From the IMG/VR virus record IMGVR_UViG_3300028833_000002: a stretch of DNA of 64,000 bases; one strand, 5' to 3'. The DNA comes from a virus (Duplodnaviria; Heunggongvirae; Uroviricota; Caudoviricetes). The first letter of the stretch is position 1, and every line of letters starts with the position of its first letter. Of this stretch, positions 1-64,000 are shown piece by piece. The translations under genes were made by a program, and so were the position numbers. Below the pieces are notes generated by a model. That model was not told the DNA's origin. It made no database searches and saw only the letters and a list, made by a program, of their open reading frames with translations.

Positions 1-1
1 T

Positions 2-1432
2 TTTGAAGCCGCTGTTGAGGAAGGTGCTACATACACATTCGACTGCGGAAACTATACATGGGTTGGTGTTCAGATGAAAAACGCATCTGGAGGCAACACT
101 CGTGCAGAATTAGGTCATGGACCTGACACTAGGTCAGTTACATTCACAGCAGCAGCAGGTGAAACACAGGCTGTAATGCGTTTCTATCCGGGCGGTGGCG
201 TTGAATTTGACCAAATTGATTGGACTAAGATTTCATACACTAAAGACGGGGAAACTGCTGGTGAATGTGCGGGCCGCAATGCCGCTGACATCGAACGACT
301 TGATGGGTCAGCAATAATACCACCGCTTGTTTCAACAAATATCGTAGATATACTTGCTAAGGGCACTCGTAATGACCCAATTTACTTAACTCTTATGGGA
401 GATTCAATTACCTATGGTTACTCAGCGAGCGATGGAAAGTCATGGGCAGCACGTCTTGCTTCTTATCTTTCTGAAAGATATTTGGCGGGGGTTGTTGTTC
501 AGAACACTGGTGTTTCAGGCTGGGTATCAACAGATGCTGTAAGAGATATTGAAACAGCAATGCCATCAAATTCAAATATCGTTATTGCAATGTTTGGTAC
601 AAATAACCGTAGAGGTTCAACAGAATTAAATGCTCTTTACGATGATTATACAACATTCTATAATCGTGCTCAGAGCATTGGCGCAAAATTCATTCCGGCT
701 TGTTGTACAGCAGAAACATTAGTTAACGAATCTCTTGGTCCTGCTGGTCCGGGCAAATACGTTACTGACATGAGTGAAATTCATAGAATCCTTTCAAGAT
801 GGGCGAAAGACCACAACCTTGAATTACTTGATTTGTATGAAGGATTACTTAAGTATTGTAATTATGACACAGATGCTTTTGATAAGCTCTTTAATCAAAC
901 TGAAACAACAAATGTGGGTGGTCAGAGCTACCCATTCCACATCCATCCTAACGATGATGGACATTACTTAATGTATAGACTTTTCTGTGAGAAGTTAGGA
1001 ATCGCGGCACCTGTTGAATACTTTTCTGCTCCTGTTGGCGGCGGCGGTGCAACAAAATACTTACACCGTATTTACCTTTATAGAAAAGGTTATTATTACA
1101 TTGGATTCGATTTGTTCACAAACTCAGATACATCGTTCCAAGGTGATACTTAGGAAGTATTCAATGCACTTGCAGCAGAATTCACAGCTCAAAACTTTAC
1201 CAACTTCTCATGGAGAAGTATTCCTCATGCAACTGGTTGGTATAGAGAAACATCTGATAGTACGGCTATTACAATCGGAGCAATATACTACGATGGTACT
1301 GACTTTGTTGGTATTCGTGAGGGTGTTTCATTATCAACATTTGCCGATGCAACGATTAAACTCACCAACATGAAGGCGTTCAGTTCTTCACCAAAGGGCA
1401 CAATATTTGACAACAACATCCAAGCTATTTAA
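2..1432 (+). CDS. SGNH/GDSL hydrolase-domain structural protein (5' partial; fibre or esterase); in-frame TAG at 1151-1153 read through to TAA at 1430
   Basis: The frame is open from the window edge. The GDSL block I motif MGDSITYGY and block III FGTNN are present. The ORF continues in the same frame past the TAG and ends at TAA. Confidence 0.6.
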
Positions 1433-1442
1433 ACATAATAAT

Positions 1443-1476
1443 GGGAGGGAGGAACCACCCTCTCTCCTTTTATTTT
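1443..1476 (+). terminator. rho-independent terminator
   Basis: Hairpin gggaggg/ccctctc followed by a T-run. Confidence 0.5.
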
Positions 1477-1514
1477 ATATTAAAGATTTCTACAAAATAA
1501 AAGAGGTGATTAAA

Positions 1515-1775
1515 ATGGCATGGCATACTTATGAATCCTCTGGTAATAGTATTATTGGCGCGAACGTTGAAGAATGTCCGATAACTCCAGACTTCTTAGG
1601 TCATAATACTATTGCTGTAAAGGCTAATGTTAATATAGAAGTCAATGGCAAAGTTTATCATTTAGATGGTATAGAGGGTAGCACAGACATAGATGTTGTC
1701 GGCCCATCTCTTAAAACTAATGATGACTTATATATATTAACCTACGACCAAAAATTTATTAATGTAAGGAGGTAA
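1515..1775 (+). CDS. hypothetical protein (87 aa)
   Basis: An AAAGAGGTGA ribosome-binding site lies 5 nt before the ATG. It follows a terminator. Confidence 0.5.
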   Translation: MAWHTYESSGNSIIGANVEECPITPDFLGHNTIAVKANVNIEVNGKVYHLDGIEGSTDIDVVGPSLKTNDDLYILTYDQKFINVRR

Positions 1776-4700
1776 TGTTAATGACATATGGTAGTGCACA
1801 TTATTGGGCTTCTGAAGACCTTAACACCACAGGTGAAAATGTCGGCATAACCCTTGATAGTATGTGTGATATTATCGCGGCGAATGACGTTACAAATGGT
1901 AATGCTGTTGTATTCATTCCGGGCGATATTGAACACGGACAGAAAGGACATTTTCGCCTTGGTGAAGGCGGTGGAAGTGGCGCAAACATTGATGCTAGTG
2001 CTTATTAGCTTGTTGTCGGTGACGGCGAAGGTAATGGTATTGGCGCACAAGGCGGTGCTGAAGCTTAGGAAGCCAATAAAATTTATTTAAAAAACAAGAG
2101 ATTAGGTCCAAATATTCCAACTCATGAAGATGATGGAACTCCATTGGAAAACGTTGATACTGGTTCTTTTACCATTTCTTCAAATGGTTTAGGTCATACT
2201 CATACTGAAACAGTTCATGATGAAGAACTTGATGAAGATGTAGAGGTATAGGTAGAGGATGATGGCTGGAAAGCTACGATTGAAGATTTAGCTAAAGTGC
2301 TTGCTACTGGTAAGAGTAAGGTTGAGATTGGTGAAAAGGATGCAGATTATAATTTAACTTTCTGGGGAGATACACTCAATGGTCCAGATATAAAAATTAA
2401 AGGTGCCGCAAAAATTGAAATGCTCGAAAAAGCAGTTGAAACTGACAATCCTGGCATTACAGCGATTTCAATGAGAGGTAATTCTCTTATTGATATGTCG
2501 AATGAGAAGGTCTATAATTATGACTGGAAAAATAGATATTTTCCAAATGGTAGTTCAGAACGACAAAATTATAGAAGATTAAGTCCTTTTATTAATAAAG
2601 ATGATGGCCCTATACTTCAACTTAAAGGTTCTCCGACTGTTATGTTTTAGGATGACGCCATCGTTAAAGTTGAAAATGGCTCTCTTGTTGAAGTGGGCGG
2701 TAACGCAAGAGTTCATATTGTTGGTGGCGAATGGATTAATAATGCAGCCCCAAATGCAATAAACGGACTCGAAGAGAAAAAAATAGTTAATATTATGGCT
2801 GGACCAGGTTTTTGGTCTGAGTTATATGGAAAAGATGATTTTTATAGTGTTTTAAACATGAATCCGGGTACACTAATATTAACAACGCAACTTCTAAAAA
2901 ATCAAATTCCAACATCTGGTGGCAGTGGTATTTATAGTTATCAATCATGTTTTTACGATACGGGCTATAGAGACACATATACACCGGGTTATTGTTTTGA
3001 TGCTTCAGATTGGAATGTTTTCCATCTTCGTAGAATAGCTCCGAAAAACTATGCTTCAAGCTCTGCCACAAAATATGATAATCAAAGGTTAAGAAGTAGA
3101 TTAGCTTCCCCAACTTTCAGTATGTCAAATGCAACTATGCTTAGCGTGACAGCAAGAGACGAGTCAGCAATTTGTTTAAATATTGGTGCTGCAGAGCACG
3201 GAACAATTGTAACAGATATAACTACAAATGGACATATCAATATCAAAGCCGGAATGGAACAGGGCGCTTCGTTCGTATACGATTTTGGTTCATAGCCAAA
3301 TGCAGATGCTGCGGTAAAGGTTGGATTTAGTGGTTGTTCAAGAATAGTTTTTCAGCCACAAGATGGCACAAGCATAAACTTTTCTCCAAGAGGGCCTTTT
3401 GGTTTTTTCATTAATGCAAAACATACAGAAATGAACTGGGAATGGGAAAAATTTTATGGTTTATTTGGCGGCCATGATGTTTTTGCTTAGGTTGACGGAA
3501 ATAGCCACTTTGAATCATGGAGCGGAACAGTTATTTTAAGAAACTCTAATAATTTAAGAGCTTATAATGGTTCTGATAACCCTAGATATGAATATTATCC
3601 TTACTTCCCATCTCCTGAAAAAAATCGTTCAGTTAATGGAACAATAACAGTAAATGCAGATTTGTCTGATACATCTATTGCTGATATTGAAAGTACATAT
3701 GGTAATCAGTTAAAGAGTGCAACTGCCTTAAATGCAGCAATAGCAAATGATTATACATGGACTGGTTTTTCTGGAACATCAAAATCAAAATTACCGGCAA
3801 TATATTATGAGACATTATCATGCTCTTCTTGTACTTGTGTGGGAACTATACCAAGTATAGTTCTTTATGGAGAATATGATACTTGGGATGAAATATATAA
3901 CTCGGAAGAATTTAAGCAGTGGGTAAAAACAAATTTAGGTTGCACTAATACTCCAACTTATAATTCTGTAACTGGAGGAGAGATTACTGGGAAATCCCAA
4001 TATAGCGATGGACGTTGGAGTTATAATGGCACTTTCCCTATAAATATAACTAATATTACTATAACAATTAGAAGTGGTAATTCAACAACTCCAATTGATG
4101 AGGCATATTCAAACTTTAAGATTATTTATAATGGTAGTAGTTCATATCCTGGCACAGTTGAAATGAGAAACAAAATTGTAAAAGACTTCTTAGATACTAA
4201 AGACTACTACCTAAGAAAAATCTTTAAACTTCCATCAAGCCCATATTTCTCTTATTCATCACTTACAGAAAATCAATATGAAGAATCAATTTCTTTAGAA
4301 GATATTACTTTTGACCAAACCGGTGGATATTATAATTATTATATAACTATTACAACTTCTACATATATAAATTTAAACAACACAACTGTAGAGCAGTTTT
4401 TACAAAATTCTTAGGTATTAGCTTCTTTAAGAAGTTCTTTTGGTAATTTTACATCAGTAGAGCCTTTGGAAAATGTAGACTTACAATATAGTCGTTATCA
4501 GTATAGCAGATATTACTATGCTATTAAAGGTATTAGGGTTCATTATGACAGCTGGCCATTAACTAATACATTCTACAGTAATAGCCCTAGCAGCGGCGGA
4601 ATGCTAAATTATCCGGGTGAAGATTTAAGTAGTTTAGACCCAGTAACACAGAATACTATAAAAAATAAAATTGAAACATCTTATACATCTAGTTATTATG

Positions 4701-5455: not shown

Positions 5456-6580
5456 ATGAATTTTGATAACACACTAGCAACATTCGGCTCAGACGGTGGC
5501 GGTGAATTCAAACGTGATATTGACCGTGAAGAATCCATTGGTTATTCAGATGGCTCTTTCGCCGCGAAATGGGAACCTTTCGCAACAGCCGAAGAGCCAA
5601 TCGTGCCGCAAATTGATGACAAAATCCGTGGTATGTCTTATGGTTACTTTGCTAATCGCGGCGAAATAACATCGAAGAACGGTCTTGCTTCTCAGAGAAC
5701 AATGTTCAATGTGGGATTTAATTGGACTTGTTTAACAGTGGTAAACTACCAAGAATCCTACCATTCTACAAACATCTTCGCAGACCATTTGCGCACTCCG
5801 TCAGACCATGACATCGAATCATTTGTCAACGCCGCACATGAACGAGGGGTTAAGGTATGTTTAAAGCCAATGGTTCATTCTCAGGACAATGTATGGCGTG
5901 CTTTCATAAGTTTTCCATCACACAACATGGATGACGTGGATGCTTATTGGAAGCCGTGGTTTGAATCCTATAAGAACTTCATTCTCCACTATGCTGAACT
6001 GGCGCAGAAACTCGGTGTTGAAATGTTTTGTATTGGATGCGAAATGCTTGGCGCAGAATATCGTGAAGCTGACTGGAGATACATTATCTCCGAAGTTCGC
6101 AGAGTTTATACTGGTATCGTAATCTACAACACTAACCATGACCACGAAGATACTCAGGGATGGTTTGACAGTCTAGACTACATCGGCACATCAGCATACT
6201 ACCCAGTAGGCGACCCAGACAACTCCTATGATGGCATGGTTAAAGCATGGACTGATATACGTTATCGTCTTGACGCAATCGCGGCGAGCCGTAATAAACA
6301 GTTCATCTTCATGGAAATTGGTTGCCGTTCTGTCAAAGGTGCATCAGCACATCCATGGGACTTTAACTATGACCTTCCATACAGCGAATATGAACAACTC
6401 ACATTCTACCAGTCATGTATGGACGTATTCTATGATGACCCATATTTCGCCGGCGTATTCTGGTGGGATTGGCCAACATATCTCCCAACATCCGTAGGCC
6501 GCGATTTCTACATCCACAACAAACTAACTGAAAAATACTTGTATGATTTTAATACGGCAAAGGGTTAGACAAAAACTTAA
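5456..6580 (+). CDS. TIM-barrel glycoside-hydrolase-like protein (possible depolymerase); TAG at 6566 read through
   Basis: An AAGGAGG ribosome-binding site precedes the start. The sequence has clan GH-A-like features (FMEIGC, CIGCEM). The assignment is by motif only. Confidence 0.5.
5558..5568. repeat. exemplar of the palindromic 11-mer TTCGCSGCGAA (TTCGCCGCGAA)
   Basis: Perfect palindrome inside a CDS. Confidence 0.6.
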
Positions 6581-7194: not shown

Positions 7195-7518
7195 ATGGCA
7201 GAAGAATTAGTTAAAGAAGAAGTTGTTGAGGAAGCTCCTAAGAAAAAGAGGGGGCGTCCGAAGAAATCTGAAACTGCCGCAGAAACAGCAGTAGTAGAAG
7301 AAACAACTCCAGAAGTAGTTGCAGAAGAACCTGTAGCCGAAGAAGTTGCCGAAGTTGCCGTTGAACCTACTGTAGAAGTTCCTGTTGAAATCGTTACAGC
7401 AGAACCTACAAAGGCAGAAGTTGTTATTCCTTTCGCGGCGAAAGAAGCACCAAACTTCTACGCTGCTCGTGCAAACTCACCATTTAACGGCACAACAATT
7501 TCTTGTGTATTTAGATAA
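7195..7518 (+). CDS. acidic Glu/Val/Pro-rich protein with an AT-hook-like KKKRGRPKK
   Basis: A ribosome-binding site is present. The sequence is low-complexity. Confidence 0.45.
   Translation: MAEELVKEEVVEEAPKKKRGRPKKSETAAETAVVEETTPEVVAEEPVAEEVAEVAVEPTVEVPVEIVTAEPTKAEVVIPFAAKEAPNFYAARANSPFNGTTISCVFR
7432..7442. repeat. exemplar TTCGCGGCGAA
   Basis: Perfect palindrome inside a CDS. Confidence 0.6.
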
Positions 7519-10728: not shown

Positions 10729-13700
10729 ATGAACTACGGACAAGACAAGTTCTTTAATGGCGACAAAGGCCTTTATACTACCCTCATATCAGACCTACTT
10801 AACAAATATAAATCAGACAACGATTTCCGGAAGGACGTCCAAGTGGACTCCTTCTGGAACGAGTCTTTAGCCAGACTTTTAGAATTACTTAACCAAAAGA
10901 TTGACCCTAATGGTATTCGTAATTATGAATCGTCTGGCTTATTAGTAGAACTGATAGACGGTACAATAGATGATTCTGTGTTAAGAGCCGCACTTACCAC
11001 AAAGGATTCAAATGATAGATATGCCGCAATCCGCTTAATGGATGTTATGGACGCGGATGCTGGTGCTAATTTTTGCGGCGAAGACGACTTATATGAACAG
11101 ATGCGCTTTTATGAAACCATTACTATCAATGGTGCAGTTGGTAAAAACGTTTTATTTGATAGTTAGGCTTTTGGACCATTAGATAAATTGTTAGCTGGGG
11201 AAGACATTCTTCATGGCGCCTTTACCTATATAATAAGGGGAATTCGTTCAGGCGTAGATGCCGAAACTGGAAAAGCCTACTGGCCACCTTATGCTGAAGG
11301 TGAAAATTCAGCAACGGCTTCAACTCCAACAACTTATCGGGTAGTCAAGAAACCATGGGTAATTCCTTGGTTCAATCTCGATATGGAAAGTTATTCTAAG
11401 GTTCGCGGCGAAGACAAGAAACTCAGTGTTCTCGCAGACCCATCAGACTTAGGCTTTACCTGTATGCAAAGAGATGGACTTGCAGACGACATGGAATTTA
11501 GAATCCAAGCTATGCAAATCTATAACATATTAGTTGAAATTGGTCTTGAAAAAAATAAAGGAGAAACAGAGTTTGACAAATACAGAGCTTACGGCAAACA
11601 AATCGACTATACATCTCATAGCTTTGAAAATATTAACATGGACAAACGTCAAGTTCTCGAAGTAGACGATACTGTAGAAACTGTTCTCGGAAGTTCAATG
11701 GCTATACGTATAGGTGATGTAATACCACCGGAATCTACCGTAGACTTTAGTAGTATTGAAGACATGTATGTTTCAATCTGTTATAGCCCATTAGAACAAA
11801 CAGAAGGCATCTATCCAATACAACTAACCAACGAAGAAGTAACGCAATACTTCTCAGACATAATCTACAATATACTTGAACAAAGCACAACAGCTCCAGA
11901 CCCATCGGATATAGTATTTAAAGTTAAAAACACAGATAGGGCCGCTAAGAACTTACTCGCCGCCATTGAGGTCGTAGACGAAGACCACGTAGATGACAAT
12001 GCTCCAGTTGCCCTTGGTAGTTGCTTACACTATTGCGGCAAGTTCGGTTCAATCCAACTCATGGAAAAAGAAGCCACAAAAGTCGCAGAAAGAATTGGTG
12101 TGACCTACGAAAAATTTGAAAACATGGAATTTGACGACTTCTGCTCTCTATGGGCGCAAAAAGCAAATCGTTGGATTCGTCTTATCATGCCGCAAAATAA
12201 ACGCAGAGTTGAAGTTGAAGACCTTAATAGAAACTTTTGGGTTATCGCTCAGGTAATTGCCGGCGTTAGTGCTTACTTATTTGACGGGGACGGTCCAATC
12301 AGTGAGTTCCTTAAAGGCATGATTAAAGAAATTGGTCAACTTTGGGAGAATGTTATTTACCTTTGGATGACGCAAAGTTTAATTGGAGAGCCTCCACTTA
12401 TAACAGATACACACTGTGAAGTGCTTATGCCGAACGCAGCTCACGGGAAAGTTTCAATGACCTATGATGATTTCGTTTGCTCTCCAGAACTCAATTATCT
12501 CTTACAAAAATATCCAGACAAAAACCTTTGCATTTTGCCTTACATGAGAAAAAATAATTATGAGAACGATTATTACTCTAAGGTATCGTTCCCAGGTGTT
12601 TATATCTATGATAGAAACATGGATAACCCTTCCTGGGAGGTCTTACCACTAAATACCACAGGGTTGGAAATAGATTTGGGAGATTATGCCGACCATATAT
12701 ATGGTCTGATTAAATTACCGGAATACAACATCTCAACTGGCAAATACATGGTAGACGATTTCACAGCAGAAATGTTCCCTGAGCACTACAGAAATTACTT
12801 AACTTTCGCGCCGCTTAGTTCAGCACCATACATTGGTCTTGACCTTAAGAGATACTATGGTCTTGCAAGAGATATTATAGATTTTGACGGAAAACTCTAC
12901 AAGAAAAATTCTGAAGGTATTTGGGAAAAGAATCCACAAATTGACATTCACATTATCTTTAGAGATACAGTAAGAGAAATGATGACAGATAGGGTAGCTA
13001 ACCTTATGGAGTATAAGGGTGAGTATGAGGAAGGAGTAATCACAACAAAGAAATATAAAACAGCTCTTGACAATGGCCCTCTTGGTGAAGTAGCGCCTAC
13101 ATTAACACCTATTAAAAAGGGCTACTATCAGGGCGAAATGTTAAGCACATATGTTGATGTTGATGACCCTATGTACTCAATTATGGTTTTACCTACCATG
13201 AAAACAGAGCCATATTACGAAACTGAAGCACACTTCAAATCTCATTACAATTACACAGATTTACCTGACCTTGTGGCTTCTGATAAACAAATCTTACTTG
13301 CATATGCAAAGGCAAGCGAAGATTATTCAAATAACCCAGCGGCATTTAAGATGTAGAACTATAATGCATTAAAGGCTTTATACACAACAGAAGAAGTTAT
13401 GTATAAGAATACAGCCGCGGTTTATGATAAAACCACAAGAAGTGCATTAGCAAGTGATACGTCAGGTGAGGAACCAGTTCTTGTATATCCTACATTTGCG
13501 GATTATTTAGCAGAGCTTGTGTCGGTAATCAACAAAGACAAGTATATTTCTCCTTACTGCTTAATATTTGCAGAAGGCGAAAAGAACTTCAACTATCGCG
13601 CCGATACAGAAGAACCACATAAAATGATTAAGTATTTAGCATCAAAAGATGGTTTAGTTTCTCAGTATTATGAGTCAACACATCCGACCGACTTCACCAA

Positions 13701-14769
13701 TGCTAATGCTGTTATTTATTGCGGCAAAGAACATATTGCATCAGATTATCCGGGCCATCGCACAATAAAACCAACTAATGGACATAGTTTCCTAAGTGGT
13801 GTACTTTCTGTTCAGAGAGACGGCGAAAAGTTCAAATTTGGCTATGGTAATTACACTTGCGAGGAAGCACTACAACTCCCTATTGATACAACTGGTGAGG
13901 GACGCACTACAACTTCAATAATGGCCGGACAGCATGAACAATGGTTAACTTGTAAACAGACTGGTTAGGATTTCGGCCCATCAACATGGCTCGTAGTAAA
14001 GGTTGAAGCTCCATATGCTGTTAATACTAAGTTGATTAATGGTAGTAACGACACTATGGAAAAATATTGTTGGGGCACACTGAGAGATGAAATAGACCTA
14101 AATAGATAGTTCGCAAGAAATATCGCGGTGCAATGGTCTACTCGTGAAGAAGCAGACACTTATATAGATACATGGGGAGATGCTGTAAATGCTATCAAAG
14201 AGGCTTTCGCGGCGGAAGAAATGGATATATATGAGGATTCATGGTATTTAGAGCAGGCAATTATAGGTATATCAAATTCACCTTACTATGATGAATGGTA
14301 TATAGAACAGTGTGGCCTTTATGATGACGACCCTCAATGGGATACTAAGGTAAGGGCATGGCTACAAGATAAAGGCATCACGCCGCAGACATACACATCT
14401 CATGGTTTTGATACATGGACTGGTGAACGTATTTTCATCAACACTTCAATGCGTTCTGAAATAAGAGTTTATATGTTCGGTCCGAATGGTATGTATGGTC
14501 AAAAGATTTACAGTAGAAATGCCGATGGTGAATTTGACCAAACTCACATTGAAACGGGCGGCACACATGATGTAGACACAGTTCGTGCTGGCTACGAAGT
14601 TATTAACAACTCTAGCCGCAATCGCAACTATGAAAAATATAAAGACTTCGGTCATAAAACGGACACAACATACTATGACCCAGACCAGATGGATGATACT
14701 GTAGAAGGCCCGGCATGGTATGAACAACACATTACTTGGGTAGACCAAAACCCTCCGTGGGATAATTAA
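10729..14769 (+). CDS. giant structural protein, paralogue B (~1346 aa), 4 in-frame TAG
   Basis: Track ORFs 10729, 11188, 13399 and 14128 share frame 1 and are separated only by TAG (11167, 13354, 13966, ~14107). An AGGAGG ribosome-binding site is present. Confidence 0.55.
11402..11412. repeat. exemplar TTCGCGGCGAA
   Basis: Perfect palindrome inside a CDS. Confidence 0.6.
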
Positions 14770-24788: not shown

Positions 24789-24834
24789 TCGCGGCAATCC
24801 GCAAATAAAATATTTTAAAAAGAGGTAATAATTT

Positions 24835-48926: not shown

Positions 48927-48997
48927 GGGCTTTTCAAAATAAATTACATATTAGTATCGCGGCGAAAACCGTGAAATAAAAATCGAGGTGAATTTGA

Positions 48998-49246: not shown

Positions 49247-49444
49247 TAGCCTAAGAAGGACAACTTTACTCAACTAAACCCCACGTGGAAGTGGTGAAAC
49301 TCCCCGATTGGGATGGTATGGCATCCTAGGAGTGTTGGCTCCACCATACATATTTTGCGGCTTGGTGAAAATAGTTATCACATATCCCTCATAAGGATAA
49401 GTTCAGGGCGCACTTCCCTGAGCCGCGATTTCGAGGTGTATTAT

Positions 49445-50469: not shown

Positions 50470-50831
50470 TTTGGTTGATTTTAATGGGTATTACGATTGT
50501 GATAATGATTATTAGTTGTATCAAAACCAAATATTTATGGGCTTTTGTTCTAATATTGTTTGGTTTTGAACTTATAATAGCCGGACATGTTAGATATGAT
50601 GATAAGCCATCTGACATGAATGTGGTAGAAATAACGGCTAAACTTGAATGTGATTCGGATTATCTTAACGTTATGGGTTATACAGAAGCTGTTGAATATA
50701 ATAAACGAGTTGAAATGACACAGAAACTTAGTGATTCTGTATGGTTCGGCGCGATTGTTAGAGGAAAAGATAAAATGGCAGACCCAATACCTCTTGAAAA
50801 CTATAAAATTACCAAAAATTGTAAGGATTAA
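50466..50831 (+). CDS. membrane protein Confidence 0.45.
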   Translation: MIWLILMGITIVIMIISCIKTKYLWAFVLILFGFELIIAGHVRYDDKPSDMNVVEITAKLECDSDYLNVMGYTEAVEYNKRVEMTQKLSDSVWFGAIVRGKDKMADPIPLENYKITKNCKD

Positions 50832-51624: not shown

Positions 51625-52035
51625 ATGGGTTATTACACAAATTTTCATATGACAGTAGCAAAGGTTATAGACGGAAGAACAGTAATTCTTGATAAAGAAG
51701 ATGCCGATTATGACAAAATCGCTTGTGCCTTTTATGACATTTGGGAATGTCCAAGTGAAGATGTTCGCAAATCAGAATGGTATCTTGATGAAGCAAGAGA
51801 ACTCTTTGAGGAAATTACCGTTGACGATAAGGAAGGCAAGTGGTATGAATATGAAGAAGATATGATTCGTCTTTCTAAGGAATTCCCGGACTTCACTTTT
51901 GTACTTGAAGGTCGTGGCGAAGAGCGTCCAGACTGGTGGGTAGGAAGTTGGGAAAATGGAATTGGTTCAGTTCACTATGCTAAAATTGTTGAGCCAGAGT
52001 GCCCAATTTGGTATAACCTCCATCCGGATTTCTAA
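51625..52035 (+). CDS. hypothetical protein
   Basis: ATG 51625 follows an AAAGGA ribosome-binding site. The track ORF start at 51535 lies inside tRNA-Gln. Confidence 0.5.
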   Translation: MGYYTNFHMTVAKVIDGRTVILDKEDADYDKIACAFYDIWECPSEDVRKSEWYLDEARELFEEITVDDKEGKWYEYEEDMIRLSKEFPDFTFVLEGRGEERPDWWVGSWENGIGSVHYAKIVEPECPIWYNLHPDF

Positions 52036-52512: not shown

Positions 52513-52835
52513 TTAATCGTCGTAGGTTCAAGTCCTACCCCCAAAGAATAAAATCTCTGAGGGGACAATCGGAGAGACGAGAGGAGATAACCTCTATAAA
52601 AGAACCATGTTTGCCGACTACACGTTAATATAAGCCGGGAAATTCGCCATCAGCACCACCCATTAAGGTGGATGGACGTGGAAGTAATGGTCCACCTTGG
52701 CACCCAACGTGTCAAGTAGCCGAGAGAATAAATGGCGGAGTAACTCAGACGGCTCTGAGCACTATCTTGAAAATAGTTGGTACCGTGAAGAGCGGTATGG
52801 GGCTCGACACCTCACCTCACTTCGCCGCCAAATAA

Positions 52836-53639: not shown

Positions 53640-54236
53640 AAAAGTATGTTGTAACCATGTGTTAAAATGAGGGACTAATCATCTCTGCATGGGCGCGGCG
53701 GAACGGCTGAGAGGTCGGGTCAAGGGATACCTTGACAGGGTTTCTTTTCTGATGTTGAAAGGCTGAGGAACAAGATGGTATACCAGCCATCAAGAGAGAA
53801 GTCGCGGCACAAGGACAACGTGAGTAATGGCACACCTAACCTGGTTGCTCCAACAATAGACGCTCTCTGTGAGAGAATAACCCCGTAGACCACATCCGCA
53901 AGATGTGAGTAAATGCTGGGAACGCAAAATAATGGAGTTGAGCCGAGAACGGCTTGAAAAAGCTGGAATAAACCCGATGGTGGTGCGAGTAGCCCAAGGC
54001 TTAGACTGGTTATTAGATTTCTATAATTTAAGGAAAATCTGAACGATGGGTGAAAGTTGGAGGTAAACAAATCCTCTCAGTGCTTTAGGTTCTTCGGAAC
54101 TGCGGTAAGAAGTTTTAGAGCGACGGCTTTAAGGCTCAGACTTATCGTCACTGTGGCTGAATAATACGTAGCGTTGTTTAAGTATGGCGAACAAAAACCA
54201 GCAATGTATTTTTTATTAGGTTTTCAAGATAGATAT
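53640..54236 (+). ncRNA. ~600-nt non-coding, GC-enriched, structured region inside the tRNA island (unknown RNA; candidate group-I-intron-like or Y-RNA-like element)
   Basis: Stops are dense in all three + frames. Many complementary segments are present (for example gggatacc...ggtataccagcc). The only ORF is a minus-strand one (53720-54070) with no ribosome-binding site. Confidence 0.3.
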
Positions 54237-54393: not shown

Positions 54394-54791
54394 ACCGGAC
54401 TTAAAAGCGCTAGTCCAGTAAGTGCATTGCTGCCATATTAATGCTTAATATGGTTCGAGCCATAGAAATATGGTGAAAGTCCCTTTGATGATACAGCCAG
54501 AAGGGCGGAGAGCGAGTAAGTCTTATAGGTCGCGGCCTATAAGTACCGAGGACATGCAAAACTGATGTTATGGAATATCCCGGCACCGTGTTGTCGTTAG
54601 AGATGCATCAGGCTCACACACGGATATGTGCCTATAATTCAATGGTAGAATAGCGGTCTTTGTGAAAATAGTTTAATGTAAAACTTTGAACCGAATGGTT
54701 TGAAATATGAGTTCGATTCTCATTTTTCGCGCTAAACCGTCTATCCCAGTTCAACTCTGGGTGGGCGCACTTTGGAAAAATTTATAAAATA

Positions 54792-56542: not shown

Positions 56543-56872
56543 ATGTATTTAATAACTCTTGAATATATTGATTCTATTGGTTCTCCATTAGAAACTTATC
56601 TTTTCAGAAATCGCGGCGAAGCATGGAGATTTTTTAAGGATAAAATGCTTGAAATACTTACCGAGGAAATTCTCTATGGAGATACCGCAAACGATTGTGA
56701 CGGCGTTCGATTAAAGGATAATCTTGATGATGAAGTTTATTACCTTATTGGTAAGGATGGCGCAAGATTAGATATGTTACCAAAAGAGCTTGATGAAGAC
56801 TTTGGTTATATTGAATTCTATGTTTCAAATTACATTTCTATAATTATTAGAGATATAGAGTTTGAAGATTGA
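56543..56872 (+). CDS. hypothetical protein
   Basis: An AAGGAG ribosome-binding site is present. Confidence 0.45.
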   Translation: MYLITLEYIDSIGSPLETYLFRNRGEAWRFFKDKMLEILTEEILYGDTANDCDGVRLKDNLDDEVYYLIGKDGARLDMLPKELDEDFGYIEFYVSNYISIIIRDIEFED

Positions 56873-56945: not shown

Positions 56946-57149
56946 ATGGAACAGATTTCTTGGGAAAAGGCAAAAGAGATTGTTGATGAAGTTTACGGTA
57001 GTGGCTGGAGTTTGGTTGATGAAGATGAGGACGAATTCATTTGTCCGGAATGCGAAGACCCAATTCTCAGAGAAGATTATCCAATCTTAGATTTTTGCCG
57101 CGAAAATAAGACATTCATTTGTCCGGTTTGTGAAAATGAAATCGGTTAA
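56946..57149 (+). CDS. zinc-ribbon protein
   Basis: CPECEDP...CPVCENE. Confidence 0.45.
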   Translation: MEQISWEKAKEIVDEVYGSGWSLVDEDEDEFICPECEDPILREDYPILDFCRENKTFICPVCENEIG

Positions 57150-58639: not shown

Positions 58640-58642
58640 TTC

Positions 58643-58712
58643 GCGGCGAGGACAAATGGAAAGTCGCCGTCCTCATAAGTCGGAGATAGTAGGTTCGATT
58701 CCTACCGCCGCA
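58643..58712 (+). tRNA. tRNA-Met/fMet/Ile2 (CAU)
   Basis: The loop is ctCATaa. The 5' acceptor is formed by a copy of the TCGCGGCGA motif. Confidence 0.6.
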
Positions 58713-59098: not shown

Positions 59099-59342
59099 TT
59101 GTCCATTATGTTGAAGCAGTTTAATGAGATACTTCATAACAGAATTTAAGGATGACACATTCTATTATATTTGATTTCTCGTCAAGAAATCGCGGCTAGC
59201 CCAAGGCAGAAATTGGGCATTTACTTCTCATTAAGACATTCTCAACAGTTATTTTTTAAAATTGACAGAAGCAGTATGAACACTTACTTCATTAGACATG
59301 CAATCTGATTTTTAGTCGTGTTCGTTATATTCTCTGTCCTCA

Positions 59343-59787: not shown

Positions 59788-60081
59788 ATGACAACACCAC
59801 AATGTTTTGAAATAATCTCAGAAGAAAAACTCAGATTAATGCCCACGAAAAATCTTATAGACCTTATGAGAGTTTATGATTATATTCGCCCCGATTACAC
59901 ATATGACTGCTATTGGAGCAATTGCAGATGCCAAAAGGCTTGTAAGGCTCTTCGCCGCGAAATGGCAATGAGAATTTACACAATTCTCAAAACAAGACCT
60001 CACATCCCAAATAAGGCAGAAGCTAAGAAAATAAGACAAGAACGTGCGGCAAAGAGATTTAAGACAACATCCGCAAGATAA
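59788..60081 (+). CDS. basic Cys-containing protein immediately upstream of the Ro60 gene
   Basis: A ribosome-binding site and a promoter copy are present. Confidence 0.45.
   Translation: MTTPQCFEIISEEKLRLMPTKNLIDLMRVYDYIRPDYTYDCYWSNCRCQKACKALRREMAMRIYTILKTRPHIPNKAEAKKIRQERAAKRFKTTSAR
59951..59961. repeat. exemplar TTCGCCGCGAA
   Basis: Perfect palindrome inside a CDS. Confidence 0.6.
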
Positions 60082-60098: not shown

Positions 60099-61754
60099 AT
60101 GAGCAGAATAGCAAGAGAAATTAAGGCAGAAAACAAGACAAAGAACACAGTAACAAACTTTATGGGCGGCAAGTCTTATACAATTAATCCGATTGATACG
60201 CTTAAATTAGTTGCGGCTTCATCAATCTTTGGTGAACCATCTTATTACCGTTCAAATGTAAGAGAAGCAAGATACCGTTGCGACAGACTGGTTGAAAACT
60301 TCTTTCCAGATTACATTGGTAAGACAACAACAGAAATCTTTGAAGATGTAATTGACAATGCTCTTTCTTATGATTTCGGCGCAACACTCGAATTTGCCGC
60401 AGAACTTAGAAATACCTATAATATGAGATTAAACCCACAGGTAATCATGGTTCGTGCCGCAATCCACGAGGGTAGAGCAAAGTTCACATCTGAAAACCCT
60501 GGTCTTTTCGCGGCAATAAATGATAAGGTAATGGCAAGAGCAGATGAACCAGCAACTCAGCTTGCATATTACATCTACAAGAACGGCGGCAAGTCAAAGC
60601 TCCCATCTGTATTAAAGAGAAGCATTGCTGATAAGCTCTCAAAGCTCGATGCATATGCGGTTAATAAGTATAAAAATGCTGAAATCGGCATGATAAATGC
60701 CGTTCGTCTTACACACGCAAATTCTCCAGTGTTAGATGACCTCTTAAATGACAATTTAAAGGTTTCAGATGCCGACGAAACATGGGAACAGAAGCGCTCA
60801 CGCGGCATGGGTTGGAAGGAAATCTTCAACTCAACAAACATGGGACACATGGCACTTTTAAGAAACCTTAGAAACGTTTTCGAGGAAGTTGAAGATATTA
60901 ACTTCGCTAAGAAATACCTTAAGAAGTTAAAGGATGGTGTACTTCGCGGCAAGCAGTTCCCATTCAGATACTACACAGCAATGGGTGTTATCGAAGCATC
61001 AAGAGTTAACTACAAGTCCCTTATCCTCGATACTCTTGAAGAATGTATGGATATTGCTATCGACAATATGCCAAAGTTAAAGGGTAAGACAATGTGCTTA
61101 TCTGATAACAGTGGTTCTGCTTGGGGCGGTATCACATCAGAGTATGGTAGCGTTGTAGTCGCCGAAATCGACAACCTTTCTTCTGTAATTGCTGGAAAGC
61201 TCTCAGACGAAGGTTATGTTGGTAAGTTCGGTGATAAGTTAAAGGTCTTCCCAGTTTCCAAGAGAAATGGATGCTTAATTCAGGCAAAGGAAATCAGCAG
61301 AGATAAGTCTCACGATGTTGGTGGTTCTACTGAAGGCGGCATTTGGGAGTTCCTTATCAACGCAATCAATGATGGTGAGTTCTACGATAATATCTTTATC
61401 TTCTCTGATATGCAGGCTGGACACGGTGGCCTTTACGGCACATCGGTTCAGATGAGCAGATACAGCAGCAAGTATGGTGTTGATGGTGGACGTTATATCG
61501 ACGTTTACAAGTTAGTTAAGGAATACCGTCAGAAGGTAAACCCAAAGGTCAATGTCTTCATGGTGCAGACTGCCGGCTACAACAACGTAATCTTACCAGA
61601 ATACTCTTACAGAACTGCTATCCTCTCCGGATGGACAGGTAAGGAAGTTAGCTTCGCGGCAGACTTCATTAAGAGATGGGATGATATTGAGGACAGACAG
61701 AACGCCCCAAGGCAGAAGTCAAGGTCAAATCTTCCACCAGTAAGATATAGATAA
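60099..61754 (+). CDS. rsr: Ro60/Rsr orthologue (TROVE domain plus vWA/MIDAS)
   Basis: The TROVE signature is GGKSYTINPIDTLKLVAASSIFGEPSYY. The C-terminal MIDAS is DNSGSAW. The size is about 551 aa. An AAGGAGG ribosome-binding site is present. Confidence 0.75.
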   Translation: MSRIAREIKAENKTKNTVTNFMGGKSYTINPIDTLKLVAASSIFGEPSYYRSNVREARYRCDRLVENFFPDYIGKTTTEIFEDVIDNALSYDFGATLEFAAELRNTYNMRLNPQVIMVRAAIHEGRAKFTSENPGLFAAINDKVMARADEPATQLAYYIYKNGGKSKLPSVLKRSIADKLSKLDAYAVNKYKNAEIGMINAVRLTHANSPVLDDLLNDNLKVSDADETWEQKRSRGMGWKEIFNSTNMGHMALLRNLRNVFEEVEDINFAKKYLKKLKDGVLRGKQFPFRYYTAMGVIEASRVNYKSLILDTLEECMDIAIDNMPKLKGKTMCLSDNSGSAWGGITSEYGSVVVAEIDNLSSVIAGKLSDEGYVGKFGDKLKVFPVSKRNGCLIQAKEISRDKSHDVGGSTEGGIWEFLINAINDGEFYDNIFIFSDMQAGHGGLYGTSVQMSRYSSKYGVDGGRYIDVYKLVKEYRQKVNPKVNVFMVQTAGYNNVILPEYSYRTAILSGWTGKEVSFAADFIKRWDDIEDRQNAPRQKSRSNLPPVRYR

Positions 61755-61828: not shown

Positions 61829-61839
61829 TTCGCCGCGAA
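61829..61839. repeat. exemplar TTCGCCGCGAA (intergenic)
   Basis: Perfect palindrome. Confidence 0.6.
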
Positions 61840-61953: not shown

Positions 61954-61964
61954 TTCGCGGCGAA
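61954..61964. repeat. exemplar TTCGCGGCGAA (intergenic, just upstream of a promoter)
   Basis: Perfect palindrome. Confidence 0.6.
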
Positions 61965-62804: not shown

Positions 62805-62805
62805 T

Positions 62806-63267
62806 ATGAATGAGATAAAAAGGCTAAAGGCTTGGTATAAGAAGAGAATAGAAGATTGGGAAAATACAGTTTGTGCATTGGGTTTTATCAGTATGATTTT
62901 AAATTTTCTTCTCATGACATTTTTCCTTGTAACAAAAGGGAAAATAGGTTTACTGTTTTTACTTAGTGTGGTAGTACAAGGATTTGGTATTACTTTTCTG
63001 ACTCATGAATATGAGATTGAGAGTGAAGAGGAAAATCTTAAAATCTTTATGAAAAGAGTTGGCGAGTGTTATAAAATGATGGATACTTTTGGCGCGGCAA
63101 TAGAAATTAGTTCTCATAATTATCAGAAAATTTCTTATGATGTGTTAATGAAGGCTTTAGGTGACTATGGTTTTTGTGCAACAAATTCGTCTTCAAACCC
63201 TTTTACATTAAAAGACTATGAGATGAGTAAGATACTTTATTTAACACGTTCTCACGGTAATGTTTAA
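62806..63267 (+). CDS. membrane protein Confidence 0.5.
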   Translation: MNEIKRLKAWYKKRIEDWENTVCALGFISMILNFLLMTFFLVTKGKIGLLFLLSVVVQGFGITFLTHEYEIESEEENLKIFMKRVGECYKMMDTFGAAIEISSHNYQKISYDVLMKALGDYGFCATNSSSNPFTLKDYEMSKILYLTRSHGNV

Positions 63268-63284
63268 TAAAAGGAGAGATTAGT

Positions 63285-63614
63285 ATGGCAGTAATACTTG
63301 CAAGTTTTGAGAAAGCTAAATGGGATTTTACAGAGGGAGATTCTGGCAACATTGATGTCTTTCTTAACGACAACAGTGATATAGATTTTAATTCAAAACT
63401 TATATTAAGTGAAATGCCCAAGAGCCGCGAAAGTCGTTATGACTTTGATATAGAGGGTAGTCCAAGAGGTAAATTCTTTAGTGCTTAGGTTTACATAGAC
63501 ATTGATGATTTGACTGTGGGTGATGGCTTGATTACAGGTGATATTACTGGTGTTTTTGAAAGATGTTTTAATAATTTTGCGGCGGATGAAGACCCTCATA
63601 TTAATCTATACGTA
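63285..63614 (+). CDS. hypothetical protein; TAG at 63486 read through to TAA
   Basis: An AAGGAGAG ribosome-binding site is present. Confidence 0.45.
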
Positions 63615-63627
63615 AGGAGGACAAAGT

Positions 63628-64000
63628 AATGAAAAATTTTTTCTTGTATGATAACTTAAAAACAGAAGATGAAATAAGAAAATATATAAAAGATACTGTT
63701 GAATGGGATGATGTGGCAATAAAAATGGGCGAGCCTTATACCCAAACCAGAGAAGATAATTTCTGTAGAGATTATGAAGAAGCAAGAACTGATTTAACTC
63801 TCTCAGAAATGGAAGAGTGCTTTGAAGAATATGTGGATGACATAGTAGAAGCTGTTAAAATGGGAGAAGAAAAATTCAGTATTACCTACAAAGAAGTAAA
63901 ACATAAACTTATATTGGAAGACTCCGAGGCATTTATTCAAAACTCCAAAATTCTGTTAATTACCGACTGGACGAAAGTTCATGAGGAAAAAATTGGTGCG
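63628..64000 (+). CDS. hypothetical protein (3' partial, runs off the window)
   Basis: An AGGAGG ribosome-binding site is present. The frame is open to the window end. Confidence 0.4.

What the first reader, a model, noticed from the sequence alone, without database searches (positions are those of the whole stretch)
1..64000. Over-represented 11-bp GC-rich palindrome TTCGCSGCGAA (core TCGCSGCGA), roughly once per kb, inside genes in every reading frame
I find more than 60 matches to the core (CGCGGCG, CGCCGCG or GCGGCGAA) in 64 kb of about 35 percent GC DNA. At least 12 of them are the perfect 11-mer (for example 5558, 7432, 11402, 39721, 47399, 48183, 59951, 61829, 61954). Because the site is a palindrome with a central S, both spellings are the same site.

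The motif falls in different codon phases. Examples are F-A-A-K, N-R-G-E and A-I-A-A-S. Selection therefore appears to act on the DNA, not on the protein. The motif also occurs in intergenic DNA and forms the acceptor stem of the tRNA-Met gene.

Such a dense, symmetric, GC-only site in an AT-rich phage suggests a dimeric protein-binding site or an enzymatic target. Possibilities include packaging or nucleoid organisation, a nicking or modification site (compare the site-specific nicks of phage T5), or a recombination hotspot. The window encodes an N6-adenine methyltransferase and a small nuclease-like protein, and the site has symmetric terminal A/T bases that could be methylated.
Basis: seen in the sequence. 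Interest (0 to 1): 0.85.

Follow-up and report, generated by a model that had tools for sequence, protein, structure and literature searches.

The report
Iterated GC-rich palindrome in rumen phage
A ~180 kb phage from ruminant guts carries the 9-base near-palindrome TCGCSGCGA about once per kilobase, kept by selection on the DNA itself; it resembles the unexplained "highly iterated palindromes" of cyanobacteria, which I have not seen described in a virus.

Summary
TCGCSGCGA occurs 26 times in 64 kb (0.06 expected), and 61 sites lie within one mismatch (~2.6 expected). It is the top outlier in an unbiased k-mer scan.

The signal is at DNA level. It survives shuffles that keep every protein and each gene's codon usage (7-mer 11x and 6x on the two strands; 10-mer 29-37x). 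It has shifted amino-acid usage. Its sites are conserved between strains (22/26 against ~12 expected).

The core is a true pseudo-palindrome, T-y-GCSGC-r-A. The centre is strict, tolerance is mirror-symmetric at positions 2 and 8, and only the flank is polar (a 3' A). Strand bias is no greater than background.

The motif is not a by-product of restriction avoidance. It is confined to this phage's species-level group. It does not co-occur with the window's EDM2-type methyltransferase.

Classical Chi, recombination-breakpoint and RNA-level readings got no support, and no reader protein was found.

Best reading (about 0.3): a phage counterpart of methylation-linked highly iterated palindromes. 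Main rival: loading sites for a dimeric KorB/ParB-like binder. The host genome could not be tested.

The parts
1875..1883 (+). perfect 9-mer TCGCGGCGA
   Evidence: in TAG-read-through ORF 1775-5365
5559..5567 (-). perfect 9-mer (11-mer TTCGCCGCGAA on + strand)
   Evidence: GH113 gene, F-A-A-K
5656..5664 (+). perfect 9-mer
   Evidence: GH113 gene, N-R-G-E
6279..6287 (+). perfect 9-mer
   Evidence: GH113 gene, I-A-A-S
7433..7441 (+). perfect 9-mer, full 13-mer TTTCGCGGCGAAA
7973..7981 (+). one-mismatch site (pos 9)
11073..11081 (+). one-mismatch site (pos 2)
11403..11411 (+). perfect 9-mer
11957..11965 (-). one-mismatch site (pos 2)
13596..13604 (+). one-mismatch site (pos 6)
14207..14215 (+). 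one-mismatch site (pos 9)
15571..15579 (+). one-mismatch site (pos 8)
   Evidence: conserved in L137, L130
15969..15977 (-). perfect 9-mer
16771..16779 (+). perfect 9-mer
20026..20034 (-). one-mismatch site (pos 2)
21580..21588 (-). one-mismatch site (pos 8)
21631..21639 (+). perfect 9-mer
22635..22643 (+). one-mismatch site (pos 2)
23736..23744 (+). perfect 9-mer
23805..23813 (+). one-mismatch site (pos 2)
24789..24797 (+). one-mismatch site (pos 8), directly after tRNA(CUA)
25086..25094 (+). one-mismatch site (pos 9)
26112..26120 (-). one-mismatch site (pos 8)
26800..26808 (+). one-mismatch site (pos 8)
27570..27578 (+). one-mismatch site (pos 2)
28770..28778 (+). one-mismatch site (pos 2)
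29467..29475 (+). one-mismatch site (pos 9)
30508..30516 (+). one-mismatch site (pos 8)
30981..30989 (+). perfect 9-mer
31426..31434 (+). one-mismatch site (pos 8)
33315..33323 (+). perfect 9-mer
33835..33843 (+). one-mismatch site (pos 3)
35121..35129 (-). one-mismatch site (pos 3)
36771..36779 (-). one-mismatch site (pos 8)
37830..37838 (+). one-mismatch site (pos 2)
39732..39740 (+). perfect 9-mer, full 13-mer
39849..39857 (-). one-mismatch site (pos 8)
41044..41052 (+). one-mismatch site (pos 9)
41819..41827 (+). perfect 9-mer
42433..42441 (+). perfect 9-mer
44730..44738 (+). perfect 9-mer
45443..45451 (-). one-mismatch site (pos 1)
45613..45621 (-). perfect 9-mer
46152..46160 (-). one-mismatch site (pos 9)
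47400..47408 (+). perfect 9-mer
48184..48192 (+). perfect 9-mer
48492..48500 (-). perfect 9-mer
48957..48965 (+). perfect 9-mer, intergenic
50746..50754 (-). one-mismatch site (pos 6)
51912..51920 (+). one-mismatch site (pos 4)
52822..52830 (-). one-mismatch site (pos 2)
56611..56619 (+). perfect 9-mer
57095..57103 (-). one-mismatch site (pos 8)
58641..58649 (+). perfect 9-mer overlapping 5' acceptor strand of tRNA-Met 58642-58713
59190..59198 (+). one-mismatch site (pos 8)
59886..59894 (-). one-mismatch site (pos 4)
59952..59960 (-). perfect 9-mer
60508..60516 (+). one-mismatch site (pos 8)
60944..60952 (+). one-mismatch site (pos 8)
61830..61838 (-). perfect 9-mer, intergenic; pairs with 61955 copy in a structured element
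61955..61963 (+). perfect 9-mer, full 13-mer, intergenic
1002..1008 (+). 7-mer TCGCGGC only (positions 8 and 9 both differ)
6498..6504 (-). 7-mer only
19249..19255 (-). 7-mer only
21184..21190 (+). 7-mer only
23472..23478 (-). 7-mer only
24505..24511 (-). 7-mer only
30780..30786 (-). 7-mer only
38225..38231 (+). 7-mer only
46883..46889 (+). 7-mer only
49422..49428 (-). 7-mer only, in 3' acceptor strand of tRNA-Met 49355-49429
53802..53808 (+). 7-mer only, inside ROOL RNA
54530..54536 (+). 7-mer only
61654..61660 (+). 7-mer only
63424..63430 (-). 7-mer only

Best explanation
The word is a recognition site on double-stranded DNA for a protein with two-fold symmetry, and the phage keeps it at about one copy per kb.

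Shown:
- The site is the pseudo-palindrome T-y-GCSGC-r-A with a polar 3' A.
- Copies arise by base substitution inside genes, through both synonymous and amino-acid-changing changes.
- Copies are retained between strains.
- Both orientations are enriched alike.
- Spacing is random, and coding and non-coding DNA have similar density.

Inferred (my commitment): this is a phage counterpart of the 'highly iterated palindromes' (HIPs) of cyanobacteria. In that model a methyltransferase, from the host or from a part of the phage genome I could not see, marks the GC-only core. A repair, recombination or nuclease system that reads the mark profits from a mark every ~1 kb, and may itself bias repair towards creating new sites. 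The word therefore accumulates until it saturates near 1 per kb.

Which protein writes the mark, which protein reads it, and whether the host genome carries the same word are all unknown.
For: Enrichment: 26 against 0.06 expected. It is the top word in an unbiased k-mer scan.

DNA-level signal:
- Shuffles that keep protein sequence and codon usage still leave TCGCGGC at 31 against 2.8, GCCGCGA at 15 against 2.6, and TCGCGGCGAA at 14 against 0.38.
- 9 of 10 R-G-E tripeptides are spelled CGC-GGC-GAA, and [IF]AAK occurs 7 times against 0.6 expected.
- In the GH113 gene, motif copies coincide with amino-acid changes relative to a homologue (RRE to RGE, IAKD to IAAS).

Constraint: the 7-mer is conserved in 22 of 26 strain comparisons against ~12 expected, P = 8e-5.

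Symmetry:
- One-mismatch variants number 14 with a left-half mismatch and 21 with a right-half mismatch, each against ~1.3 expected.
- Inner positions 3, 4, 6 and 7 almost never vary. The mirror pair of positions 2 and 8 absorbs 9 and 13 of the mismatches.
- Strand bias is 44:23, P = 0.45 against the Markov-3 background.

HIP parallels from Elhai 2015 (PMC4390886):
- HIPs are GC-rich palindromes at 0.5-2.5 per kb.
- Their one-nucleotide deviations concentrate at outer positions.
- An alternate HIP with the same centre, GCsGC, exists in Cyanothece PCC 7822 together with a cognate methyltransferase.
- Elhai proposes that a methyl-directed repair ratchet saturates at about 1 site per kb.

Not an avoidance artefact: relatives L009 and L271 also have zero GATC but lack the word.
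Against: - No methyltransferase able to act on the GC-only core was found in 72 kb. About 80 window proteins were scanned directly, and the 7.7 kb extension was covered only by the database's precomputed Pfam calls.
- The one methyltransferase-like gene is an N6-adenine EDM2-type, and it does not co-occur with the word.
- No methylation data exist.
- The host genome could not be examined, so a host-imposed ratchet is untested. Four phages of Lachnospiraceae, the best guess for the host family, lack the word.
- The function of HIPs is itself unresolved, so the analogy names a phenomenon more than a mechanism.
- The significant flank polarity (A after the site in 22/26 against T before it in 10/26, P = 0.0014) is not expected for a purely symmetric reader.
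- My literature searches turned up no HIP in a virus; Elhai 2015 itself does not mention phages.
Confidence: 0.3

Rival explanations
1. The sites are an array of binding or loading sites for a phage-encoded dimeric DNA-binding protein, for example a ParB/KorB/Noc-type clamp or another helix-turn-helix dimer. That protein would coat, organise, silence or help package the 180 kb genome.
For: - The core is mirror-symmetric.
- The best sites read TTTCGCSGCGAAA. That has the same frame as the KorB operator TTTAGCGGCTAAA, which I verified in PMC11790492.
- The sites are conserved between strains.
- The word is restricted to one species-level lineage, as expected if a new reader gene was acquired.
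- Two HTH_36 proteins are encoded, at 46426-46965 and just beyond the window.
Against: - No ParB/KorB-like protein appears among about 80 window proteins scanned with Pfam or PHROGs, nor in the database's precomputed Pfam calls for the 7.7 kb extension.
- Only 4 of 61 sites carry the full 13-bp arms.
- The density, about 1 per kb and mostly inside genes, is about five times that of KorB operators (12 in 60 kb, from memory) and far above parS or Noc site densities as I recall them.
- The left flank is A as often as T, so the outer arms are not symmetric.
Confidence: 0.25
2. The word is a Chi-like signal. The phage copies the sequence that tames the host's AddAB/RecBCD helicase-nuclease, so that its linear or rolling-circle DNA is protected or recombined.
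For: - Chi-rich phages exist at similar densities, for example LLS with one site per 1.86 kb (PMC12315714).
- Known Firmicute Chi words are short and GC-rich and share GCGG or CGCG with this word (AGCGG, GAAGCGG, GCGCGTG).
- The ~9 independent sites in the L001/L002 relatives all lie on one strand.
- The assembly closes on itself (about 11 kb of end overlap). If that reflects circularly permuted virion DNA (an inference), both orientations would be useful.
Against: - Chi is asymmetric and is read on one strand. Here mismatch tolerance is mirror-symmetric.
- Orientation bias (44:23) is no larger than background. Chi-rich phages show 20:3 or 32:0 with clustering near one end.
- There is no clustering here.
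- None of the known Chi words is enriched in the window.
- Four Lachnospiraceae phages lack the word.
Confidence: 0.12
3. The sites are targets of a phage nicking or cutting enzyme, or of a primase. They would start recombination-dependent replication or Okazaki fragments about every kb, comparable to the site-specific nicks of phage T5.
For: - The spacing of about 1 kb is of the order of Okazaki fragment lengths (my recollection).
- GIY-YIG and other homing-type nucleases are encoded.
- The flank polarity gives the site a direction.
Against: - Both orientations are enriched alike, so nicks would fall on both strands, with pairs as close as 49-123 bp.
- Primase and nickase sites are usually asymmetric, and this core is symmetric.
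- The conserved GIY-YIG protein has a membrane helix and a long coiled coil, which makes it an unlikely sequence reader.
- Motif sites show no excess of strain breakpoints.
Confidence: 0.08
4. The word has no function. It is a by-product of codon usage, GC-rich codon pairs, or escape from the many restriction sites this phage avoids.
For: - Restriction avoidance is extreme: GATC 1 against 120 expected, GCWGC 28 against 76, TCGCGA 0 against 5.5.
- Avoiding GCWGC forces Ala-Ala codon pairs to GCS-GCN in 75 of 94 cases, which explains about half of the generic GCSGC excess.
- GCSGC and TGCSGCA are mildly enriched across the whole phage group.
Against: - The specific TC...GA flanks are 17-37x above a null that keeps proteins and codon usage.
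- The phase-2 copies (R-G-E) have nothing to do with Ala-Ala pairs.
- Amino-acid sequences have shifted towards the word.
- The sites are conserved between strains.
- Relatives with the same GC content and zero GATC (L271, L009) lack the word.
Confidence: 0.06

Closest known systems
Highly iterated palindromes of cyanobacteria (HIP1 GCGATCGC, and the alternate HIP GCsGC of Cyanothece PCC 7822)
   Same: - GC-rich palindrome at 0.5-2.5 per kb.
- Sits inside genes in several frames as well as between genes.
- Propagates by substitution.
- One-nucleotide deviations concentrate at the outer positions.
- One alternate HIP has the identical centre, GCSGC (PMC4390886).
   Different: - The carrier is a lytic-looking phage, not a bacterial chromosome.
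- The word is 9 bp with an odd centre and a polar flank.
- No cognate methyltransferase was found.
- It is unknown whether the host shares the word.
- The function of HIPs is itself unsettled.
KorB (ParB-family) operator OB of IncP plasmid RK2, TTTAGCGGCTAAA
   Same: Same frame, TTT-x-GCSGC-x'-AAA, with a central S. The best sites here differ only at the mirror pair next to the centre.
   Different: - RK2 has 12 operators (from memory), many near promoters. Here there are 61 sites in 64 kb, mostly intragenic.
- Most sites lack the TTT/AAA arms.
- No ParB/KorB-like protein was found in 72 kb.
Chi sites accumulated by phages (LLS, MD8, P1)
   Same: A short GC-rich word accumulated by a phage to about 1 per 1-2 kb, beyond what codon usage explains (PMC12315714).
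   Different: Chi is asymmetric, strongly oriented and often clustered near one end. This word is symmetric, weakly oriented and evenly spread.
DNA uptake sequences (USS/DUS) of Pasteurellaceae and Neisseriaceae
   Same: About 1 per kb, in both orientations, embedded in genes in preferred frames (from my own knowledge, not tested here).
   Different: Uptake sequences are asymmetric and belong to naturally competent Gram-negative hosts. Nothing links a lytic phage of a probable Gram-positive host to DNA uptake.
Stoperators of cluster A mycobacteriophages
   Same: Many copies of one short protein-binding word spread along a phage genome (from my own knowledge).
   Different: Stoperators are asymmetric, lie almost all in one orientation relative to transcription, and sit mostly at gene boundaries.

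Membership tests
Highly iterated palindrome (HIP) | GC-rich palindromic word grossly over-represented genome-wide | tested here: met
   26 against 0.06 expected; 61 within one mismatch against ~2.6 expected; top word in the k-mer scan. Only 72 of ~180 kb were seen.
Highly iterated palindrome (HIP) | Density of roughly 0.5-2.5 sites per kb, inside genes in several frames and between genes | tested here: met
   0.95 per kb within one mismatch and 0.41 per kb perfect. 53 of 61 lie in ORFs, across two main phases per orientation.
Highly iterated palindrome (HIP) | One-nucleotide deviations concentrated at outer positions | tested here: met
   Positions 1, 2, 8 and 9 take 29 of 35 mismatches. Positions 3, 4, 6 and 7 take 6.
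Highly iterated palindrome (HIP) | A methyltransferase recognising the word or its core is encoded in the same genome | tested here: inconclusive
   The only methyltransferase-like gene in 72 kb is an EDM2-type N6-adenine enzyme that does not co-occur with the word. About 108 kb of the phage and the whole host are unseen.
Highly iterated palindrome (HIP) | The site is methylated in vivo | not testable with these tools
   Needs PacBio or Nanopore kinetics, or bisulfite or enzymatic sequencing.
KorB/ParB-type operator or parS array | Extended perfect palindrome (13-16 bp) in most sites | tested here: not met
   Only 4 of 61 sites carry TTTCGCSGCGAAA. The base before the site is A as often as T.
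KorB/ParB-type operator or parS array | A cognate ParB-family protein is encoded by the element | tested here: inconclusive
   None found among about 80 window proteins or in the precomputed Pfam calls for the extension. The rest of the genome was not seen.
KorB/ParB-type operator or parS array | Few sites per replicon, placed at promoters or a centromere | tested here: not met
   61 sites in 64 kb, spread evenly, mostly intragenic.
Chi (RecBCD/AddAB regulatory sequence) | Asymmetric word read on one strand | tested here: not met
   Mismatch tolerance is mirror-symmetric around a central S.
Chi (RecBCD/AddAB regulatory sequence) | Strong orientation bias, with end clustering in Chi-rich phages | tested here: not met
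   44:23, P = 0.45 against the Markov-3 background. Per-8-kb counts are even. For comparison, LLS shows 20:3 and MD8 32:0.
Chi (RecBCD/AddAB regulatory sequence) | Same word is over-represented and skewed in the host chromosome and recognised by the host enzyme | not testable with these tools
   The host is unknown. The genome-collection scan returned only the phage contig, binned in a MAG. Four Lachnospiraceae phages lack the word.
Restriction-avoidance or codon-usage by-product | Enrichment disappears under a null that keeps proteins and codon usage, and tracks the avoidance profile among relatives | tested here: not met
   6-37x above the synonymous-shuffle null, depending on word and strand. 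Relatives L271 and L009 have zero GATC yet lack the word.
T5-type site-specific nick sites | Sites confined to one strand | tested here: not met
   Both orientations are enriched 6-11x.
T5-type site-specific nick sites | Physical nicks in virion DNA at the word | not testable with these tools
   Needs virion DNA.

The most novel reading that the evidence does not exclude
This would be the first highly iterated palindrome described in a virus, and it would be a phage-autonomous genome-marking system. An as yet unseen phage-encoded symmetric reader or writer would recognise about 170 copies of TCGCSGCGA per genome. It could be a methyltransferase paired with a mark-sensing nuclease or repair factor, or a KorB/ParB-like CTP clamp. 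It would use the copies to tell phage DNA from host DNA or to organise the chromosome. The word's absence from a ~74%-identical relative would then date a recent gain of that system.
Probability: 0.25. Interest if true: 0.8.

Novelty: new variant of a known kind. Interest (0 to 1): 0.6.

Why it matters
Highly iterated palindromes have been known in cyanobacteria for about thirty years without an agreed function.

This phage packs the same kind of signal into 180 kb. Close strains retain it, and a relative at ~74% identity lacks it.

If the host shares the word, it would show that a host repair or recombination signature can be imprinted on a lytic phage strongly enough to change protein sequences.

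If the host does not share it, a new phage-encoded system for marking or organising DNA would be implied.

The result also shows that a genome under extreme palindrome avoidance (GATC 1 against 120 expected) can at the same time positively select one palindrome.

Tried and rejected
1. Strictly asymmetric 7-mer. I first read the motif as TCGCGGC plus a 3' GAA. A fair table of all one-mismatch variants showed this was partly an artefact of defining sites by an exact left half. The core is symmetric and only the flank is polar.

2. Strand bias. The raw 40:19 looked like co-orientation with transcription. Against codon-aware and Markov-3 nulls it is weak or absent.

3. By-product of GCWGC avoidance. 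This explains about half of the generic GCSGC excess but not the specific word.

4. Host identification, all without result:
- Megablast against phage records found nothing.
- IMG/VR protein scans were mostly empty.
- The single genome-collection scan returned only the phage contig, binned as 'Eubacterium sp.'.
- A 14-mer scan of viral contigs gave mostly single chance hits. After correcting for ascertainment only L029 remained enriched, and it may be a relative.
- A paired-site scan of metagenome contigs returned 120 hits with a median GC of 65% and no dense low-GC contig.

5. Host-family word. Phages of Butyrivibrio, Dorea, Coprococcus and Agathobacter show no enrichment.

6. The co-occurrence test was negative.

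7. It has a membrane helix and a coiled coil, so it is unlikely. CCGCGG is not avoided, so there is no link to Eco29kI-type enzymes.

8. Gene presence/absence in the syntenic 20 kb. Coverage was too thin to nominate a reader.

9. Recombination hotspot. There is no excess of divergence breakpoints at motif sites.

10. Second signal. No extra conserved position lies within 60 nt of the sites.

11. Literature search on the word itself returned nothing relevant.

Full report
**What the window is**

The 64 kb window has 37.6% GC. Nearly all genes and all 26 tRNA genes lie on the + strand.

The window is identical to part of a 191,580-bp metagenome contig (L128, L143). That contig overlaps itself by about 11 kb, so the genome is about 180.4 kb. 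Several other assemblies of about 180 kb agree with this size. One of them is a contig binned into a yak-reticulum MAG labelled 'Eubacterium sp.'. The samples come from ruminant guts.

Evidence bearing on the host:
- The lysins (CHAP here, GH25 and CW_7 in relatives) are closest to those of Lachnospiraceae phages.
- The promoters have the TTGACT-17-TGTTATAAT form.
- Together these suggest a Gram-positive clostridial host. The host is not identified.

TAG is read through in the large genes of the first 18 kb.

Yes.
- TCGCSGCGA occurs 26 times against 0.06 expected from dinucleotide shuffles. The 11-mer occurs 9 times against 0.02 expected.
- An unbiased scan of all 6- to 11-mers puts this word and its sub-words first.

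**Is it DNA-level?**

Yes, on four lines of evidence.
1. Shuffling synonymous codons within each gene keeps every protein and each gene's codon usage. It still leaves TCGCGGC at 31 against 2.8, its complement at 15 against 2.6, and the 10-mer at 14 against 0.38.
2. The word sits mainly in two codon phases that encode unrelated peptides, [IF]-A-A-[KR] and x-R-G-E.
3. Amino-acid usage has been pulled towards the word. 9 of 10 R-G-E tripeptides are spelled CGC-GGC-GAA. RGE occurs 10 times against 3.3 expected, and [IF]AAK 7 times against 0.6. In the GH113 gene, copies correspond to RRE-to-RGE and IAKD-to-IAAS differences from a homologue.
4. In strains at 89% and 93% nucleotide identity, the 7-mer is intact at 9/12 and 13/14 sites. 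GC-rich control 7-mers are intact at rates of 0.40 and 0.54, giving P = 8e-5. The variation falls in the flanks and at position 8.

**Anatomy**

I first took the core to be an asymmetric 7-mer. That was partly an artefact of selecting sites by an exact left half.

A table of every one-mismatch variant of the 9-mer corrects this:
- 14 variants have a left-half mismatch and 21 a right-half mismatch, each against ~1.3 expected. The difference is not significant (P = 0.31).
- The inner GCSGC is almost invariant.
- The mirror pair of positions 2 and 8 absorbs most of the change.

The site is therefore the pseudo-palindrome T-y-GCSGC-r-A. There are 61 sites within one mismatch, or 0.95 per kb.

The only real polarity is in the flank. 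On the strand with G at the centre, A follows the site in 22/26 perfect copies, while T precedes it in 10/26 (P = 0.0014).

Other features:
- No further signal lies within 60 nt.
- Spacing is close to random (coefficient of variation 0.92).
- Density is even along the window and similar in coding and non-coding DNA.
- Density continues at 8 sites in the 7.7 kb beyond the window.
- Strand bias is 44:23, no more than the Markov-3 background predicts.

**What it is not**

The genome shows extreme restriction-site avoidance: GATC 1 against 120 expected, GCWGC 28 against 76, and GTAC, CCWGG, AAGCTT, GATATC, ATCGAT and TCGCGA all depleted. Avoiding GCWGC pushes Ala-Ala pairs to GCS-GCN in 75 of 94 cases, which explains about half of the generic GCSGC excess.

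The specific word is not such a by-product:
- The phase-2 copies are unrelated to Ala-Ala pairs.
- Relatives with the same GC content and zero GATC (L271, L009) lack the word.
- The mild GCSGC and TGCSGCA excess is shared by the whole phage group.

The word is confined to this phage's species-level group:

| Locus | Copies of TCGCGGCGA |
|---|---|
| Window (64 kb) | 26 |
| L137 (~21 kb) | 6 |
| L142 (~21 kb) | 7 |
| L001, L002 (each) | ~2 |
| Other relatives, including L271 (~74% identity) | 0-1 |

**Tests of specific mechanisms**

*Chi.* Chi-rich phages show 20:3 or 32:0 orientation and clustering near one end (PMC12315714). Here symmetry, weak orientation bias and even spread argue against Chi. 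Known Chi words are not enriched.

*Host-family word.* Four Lachnospiraceae phages lack the word.

*The window's methyltransferase.* The protein at 55379-56200 carries EPSAGAGAF and GNPPF. It belongs to Pfam Mtase_EDM2 and always follows a conserved ~180-aa partner gene. Contigs carrying homologues at 74, 59, 49 and 45% identity have 0, 0, 0 and 1 copies of the 9-mer. This gene therefore does not predict the word.

*Recombination hotspot.* There is no excess of divergence breakpoints at the sites (low power).

*Reader protein.* About 80 window proteins, scanned with Pfam, PHROGs or NCBIfam, and the precomputed Pfam calls for the extension contain no ParB/KorB-like protein and no cytosine methyltransferase.

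**Comparison with known systems**

The closest phenomenon is the highly iterated palindrome of cyanobacteria (PMC4390886):
- HIPs are GC-rich palindromes at 0.5-2.5 per kb, inside genes.
- Their one-nucleotide deviations fall at the outer positions.
- They are linked to cognate methyltransferases.
- One alternate HIP, GCsGC, is exactly the centre of this word.
- Elhai proposes that methyl-directed repair creates and maintains such sites until they saturate near 1 per kb.

The closest individual site is the KorB operator TTTAGCGGCTAAA (PMC11790492). It shares the frame TTT-x-GCSGC-x'-AAA. However, only 4 of 61 sites here have those arms, and no ParB-family protein was found.

**Verdict**

I am about 80% confident that this is a selected recognition site on duplex DNA for a symmetric protein. 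This is my own judgement, not a computed value.

Which protein reads it is open. I favour a HIP-type, methylation-linked mark (0.3) over the rivals:

| Explanation | Confidence |
|---|---|
| HIP-type methylation-linked mark | 0.30 |
| Array of binding sites for a dimeric phage protein | 0.25 |
| Chi-like signal | 0.12 |
| Nicking or priming sites | 0.08 |
| Functionless by-product | 0.06 |

The decisive missing data are the host genome, the other ~108 kb of the phage, and methylation calls.

Noticed in passing
window 53631-54219 (+): Full-length ROOL RNA (Rfam RF03087, 285 bits) embedded in the tRNA cluster.
   Followed up: no
window 61755-62058, with motif copies at 61829-61839 and 61954-61964: The two inverted motif copies pair as the closing stem of a ~140-nt strongly structured element (MFE -51.8 kcal/mol against -32.2 for shuffles, z = -5.5). 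It lies directly downstream of the Ro60/TROVE-like gene 60099-61754. It is a candidate Y-RNA-like partner of Ro, with no Rfam match at gathering score.
   Followed up: partly
window 74-18792, and tRNA at 24714-24788: Amber (TAG) read-through. In-frame TAGs are concentrated in the large genes of the first 18 kb (up to 14 in 7503-9146) and almost absent from 19-64 kb. A tRNA with anticodon CUA is encoded. Database gene calls of 1346 and 975 aa agree with read-through.
   Followed up: partly
whole window: Extreme restriction-site avoidance: GATC 1 against 120 expected. GTAC, GCWGC, CCWGG, AAGCTT, GATATC, ATCGAT and TCGCGA (0 against 5.5) are also depleted.
   Followed up: partly
19 sites on the + strand, e.g. 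5423, 18968, 38536, 43320, 59747: Canonical TTGACT/TTTACT - 17 bp - TGTTATAAT promoters, all on the + strand. Many are followed by a conserved leader, ATATATAGAAAGTTAAGAGAGG, just upstream of the start codon.
   Followed up: partly
window 54792-55382 and 55379-56200: A conserved two-gene module: an unknown ~180-196 aa protein overlapping the start of an EDM2-type (PF26055) N6-adenine methyltransferase-like protein. The same pair occurs in many 118-173 kb phage contigs. Whether the substrate is DNA or RNA is unknown.
   Followed up: partly
window 41466-42602: Highly divergent adenylosuccinate-synthetase-family protein. It matches PHROG 1211, the family PHROGs annotates as a 2-aminooxy adenylosuccinate synthetase and which I take to be PurZ-like. 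It scores only 34.7 bits against a PurA cutoff of 402. PurZ versus PurA is not resolved. The strong GATC avoidance argues against adenine replacement in the DNA.
   Followed up: partly
window 23029-45534 and 60099-61754: Dense set of RNA repair and processing genes: two RNA ligases (38820-39710, 44413-45534), polynucleotide kinase (23029-23991), Thg1 (29106-29918), cREC_REC (27711-28052), a weak sub-threshold Macro-domain match (28037-28534) and Ro60-like (60099-61754). They lie alongside the tRNA genes.
   Followed up: no
window 21159-22196: GIY-YIG nuclease domain fused to an N-terminal membrane helix and a ~200-residue coiled coil. It is conserved at 48-56% identity in the L001/L002 clade and not detected in the L006-L010 loci.
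   Followed up: partly
window 54320-54393: Rfam calls an extra tRNA here that ARAGORN did not list. ARAGORN's entry at 54662-54732 has an undetermined anticodon.
   Followed up: no
L272 (164 kb relative, 28% GC): This relative carries its own, weaker over-represented GC-rich word, TTGCGGCC (GGCCGCAA 10 against 1.0 expected). It fits the same T-N-GCGGC-N frame.
   Followed up: partly
L146 (Butyrivibrio virus Bo-Finn); L147-L149 (Dorea, Coprococcus and Agathobacter phages): Bo-Finn has a strongly over-represented word, CTGATCTC/GAGATCAG (23 against 1.0 expected). The three human-gut Lachnospiraceae phages share enriched GGGCGGT/GGCGGTG (12-16 against 2-3) and are depleted in GCSGC.
   Followed up: no
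L130, L132 against window 17458-18869: Strain-specific insertion of a NUMOD3 homing-endonuclease gene upstream of the helicase gene.
   Followed up: no
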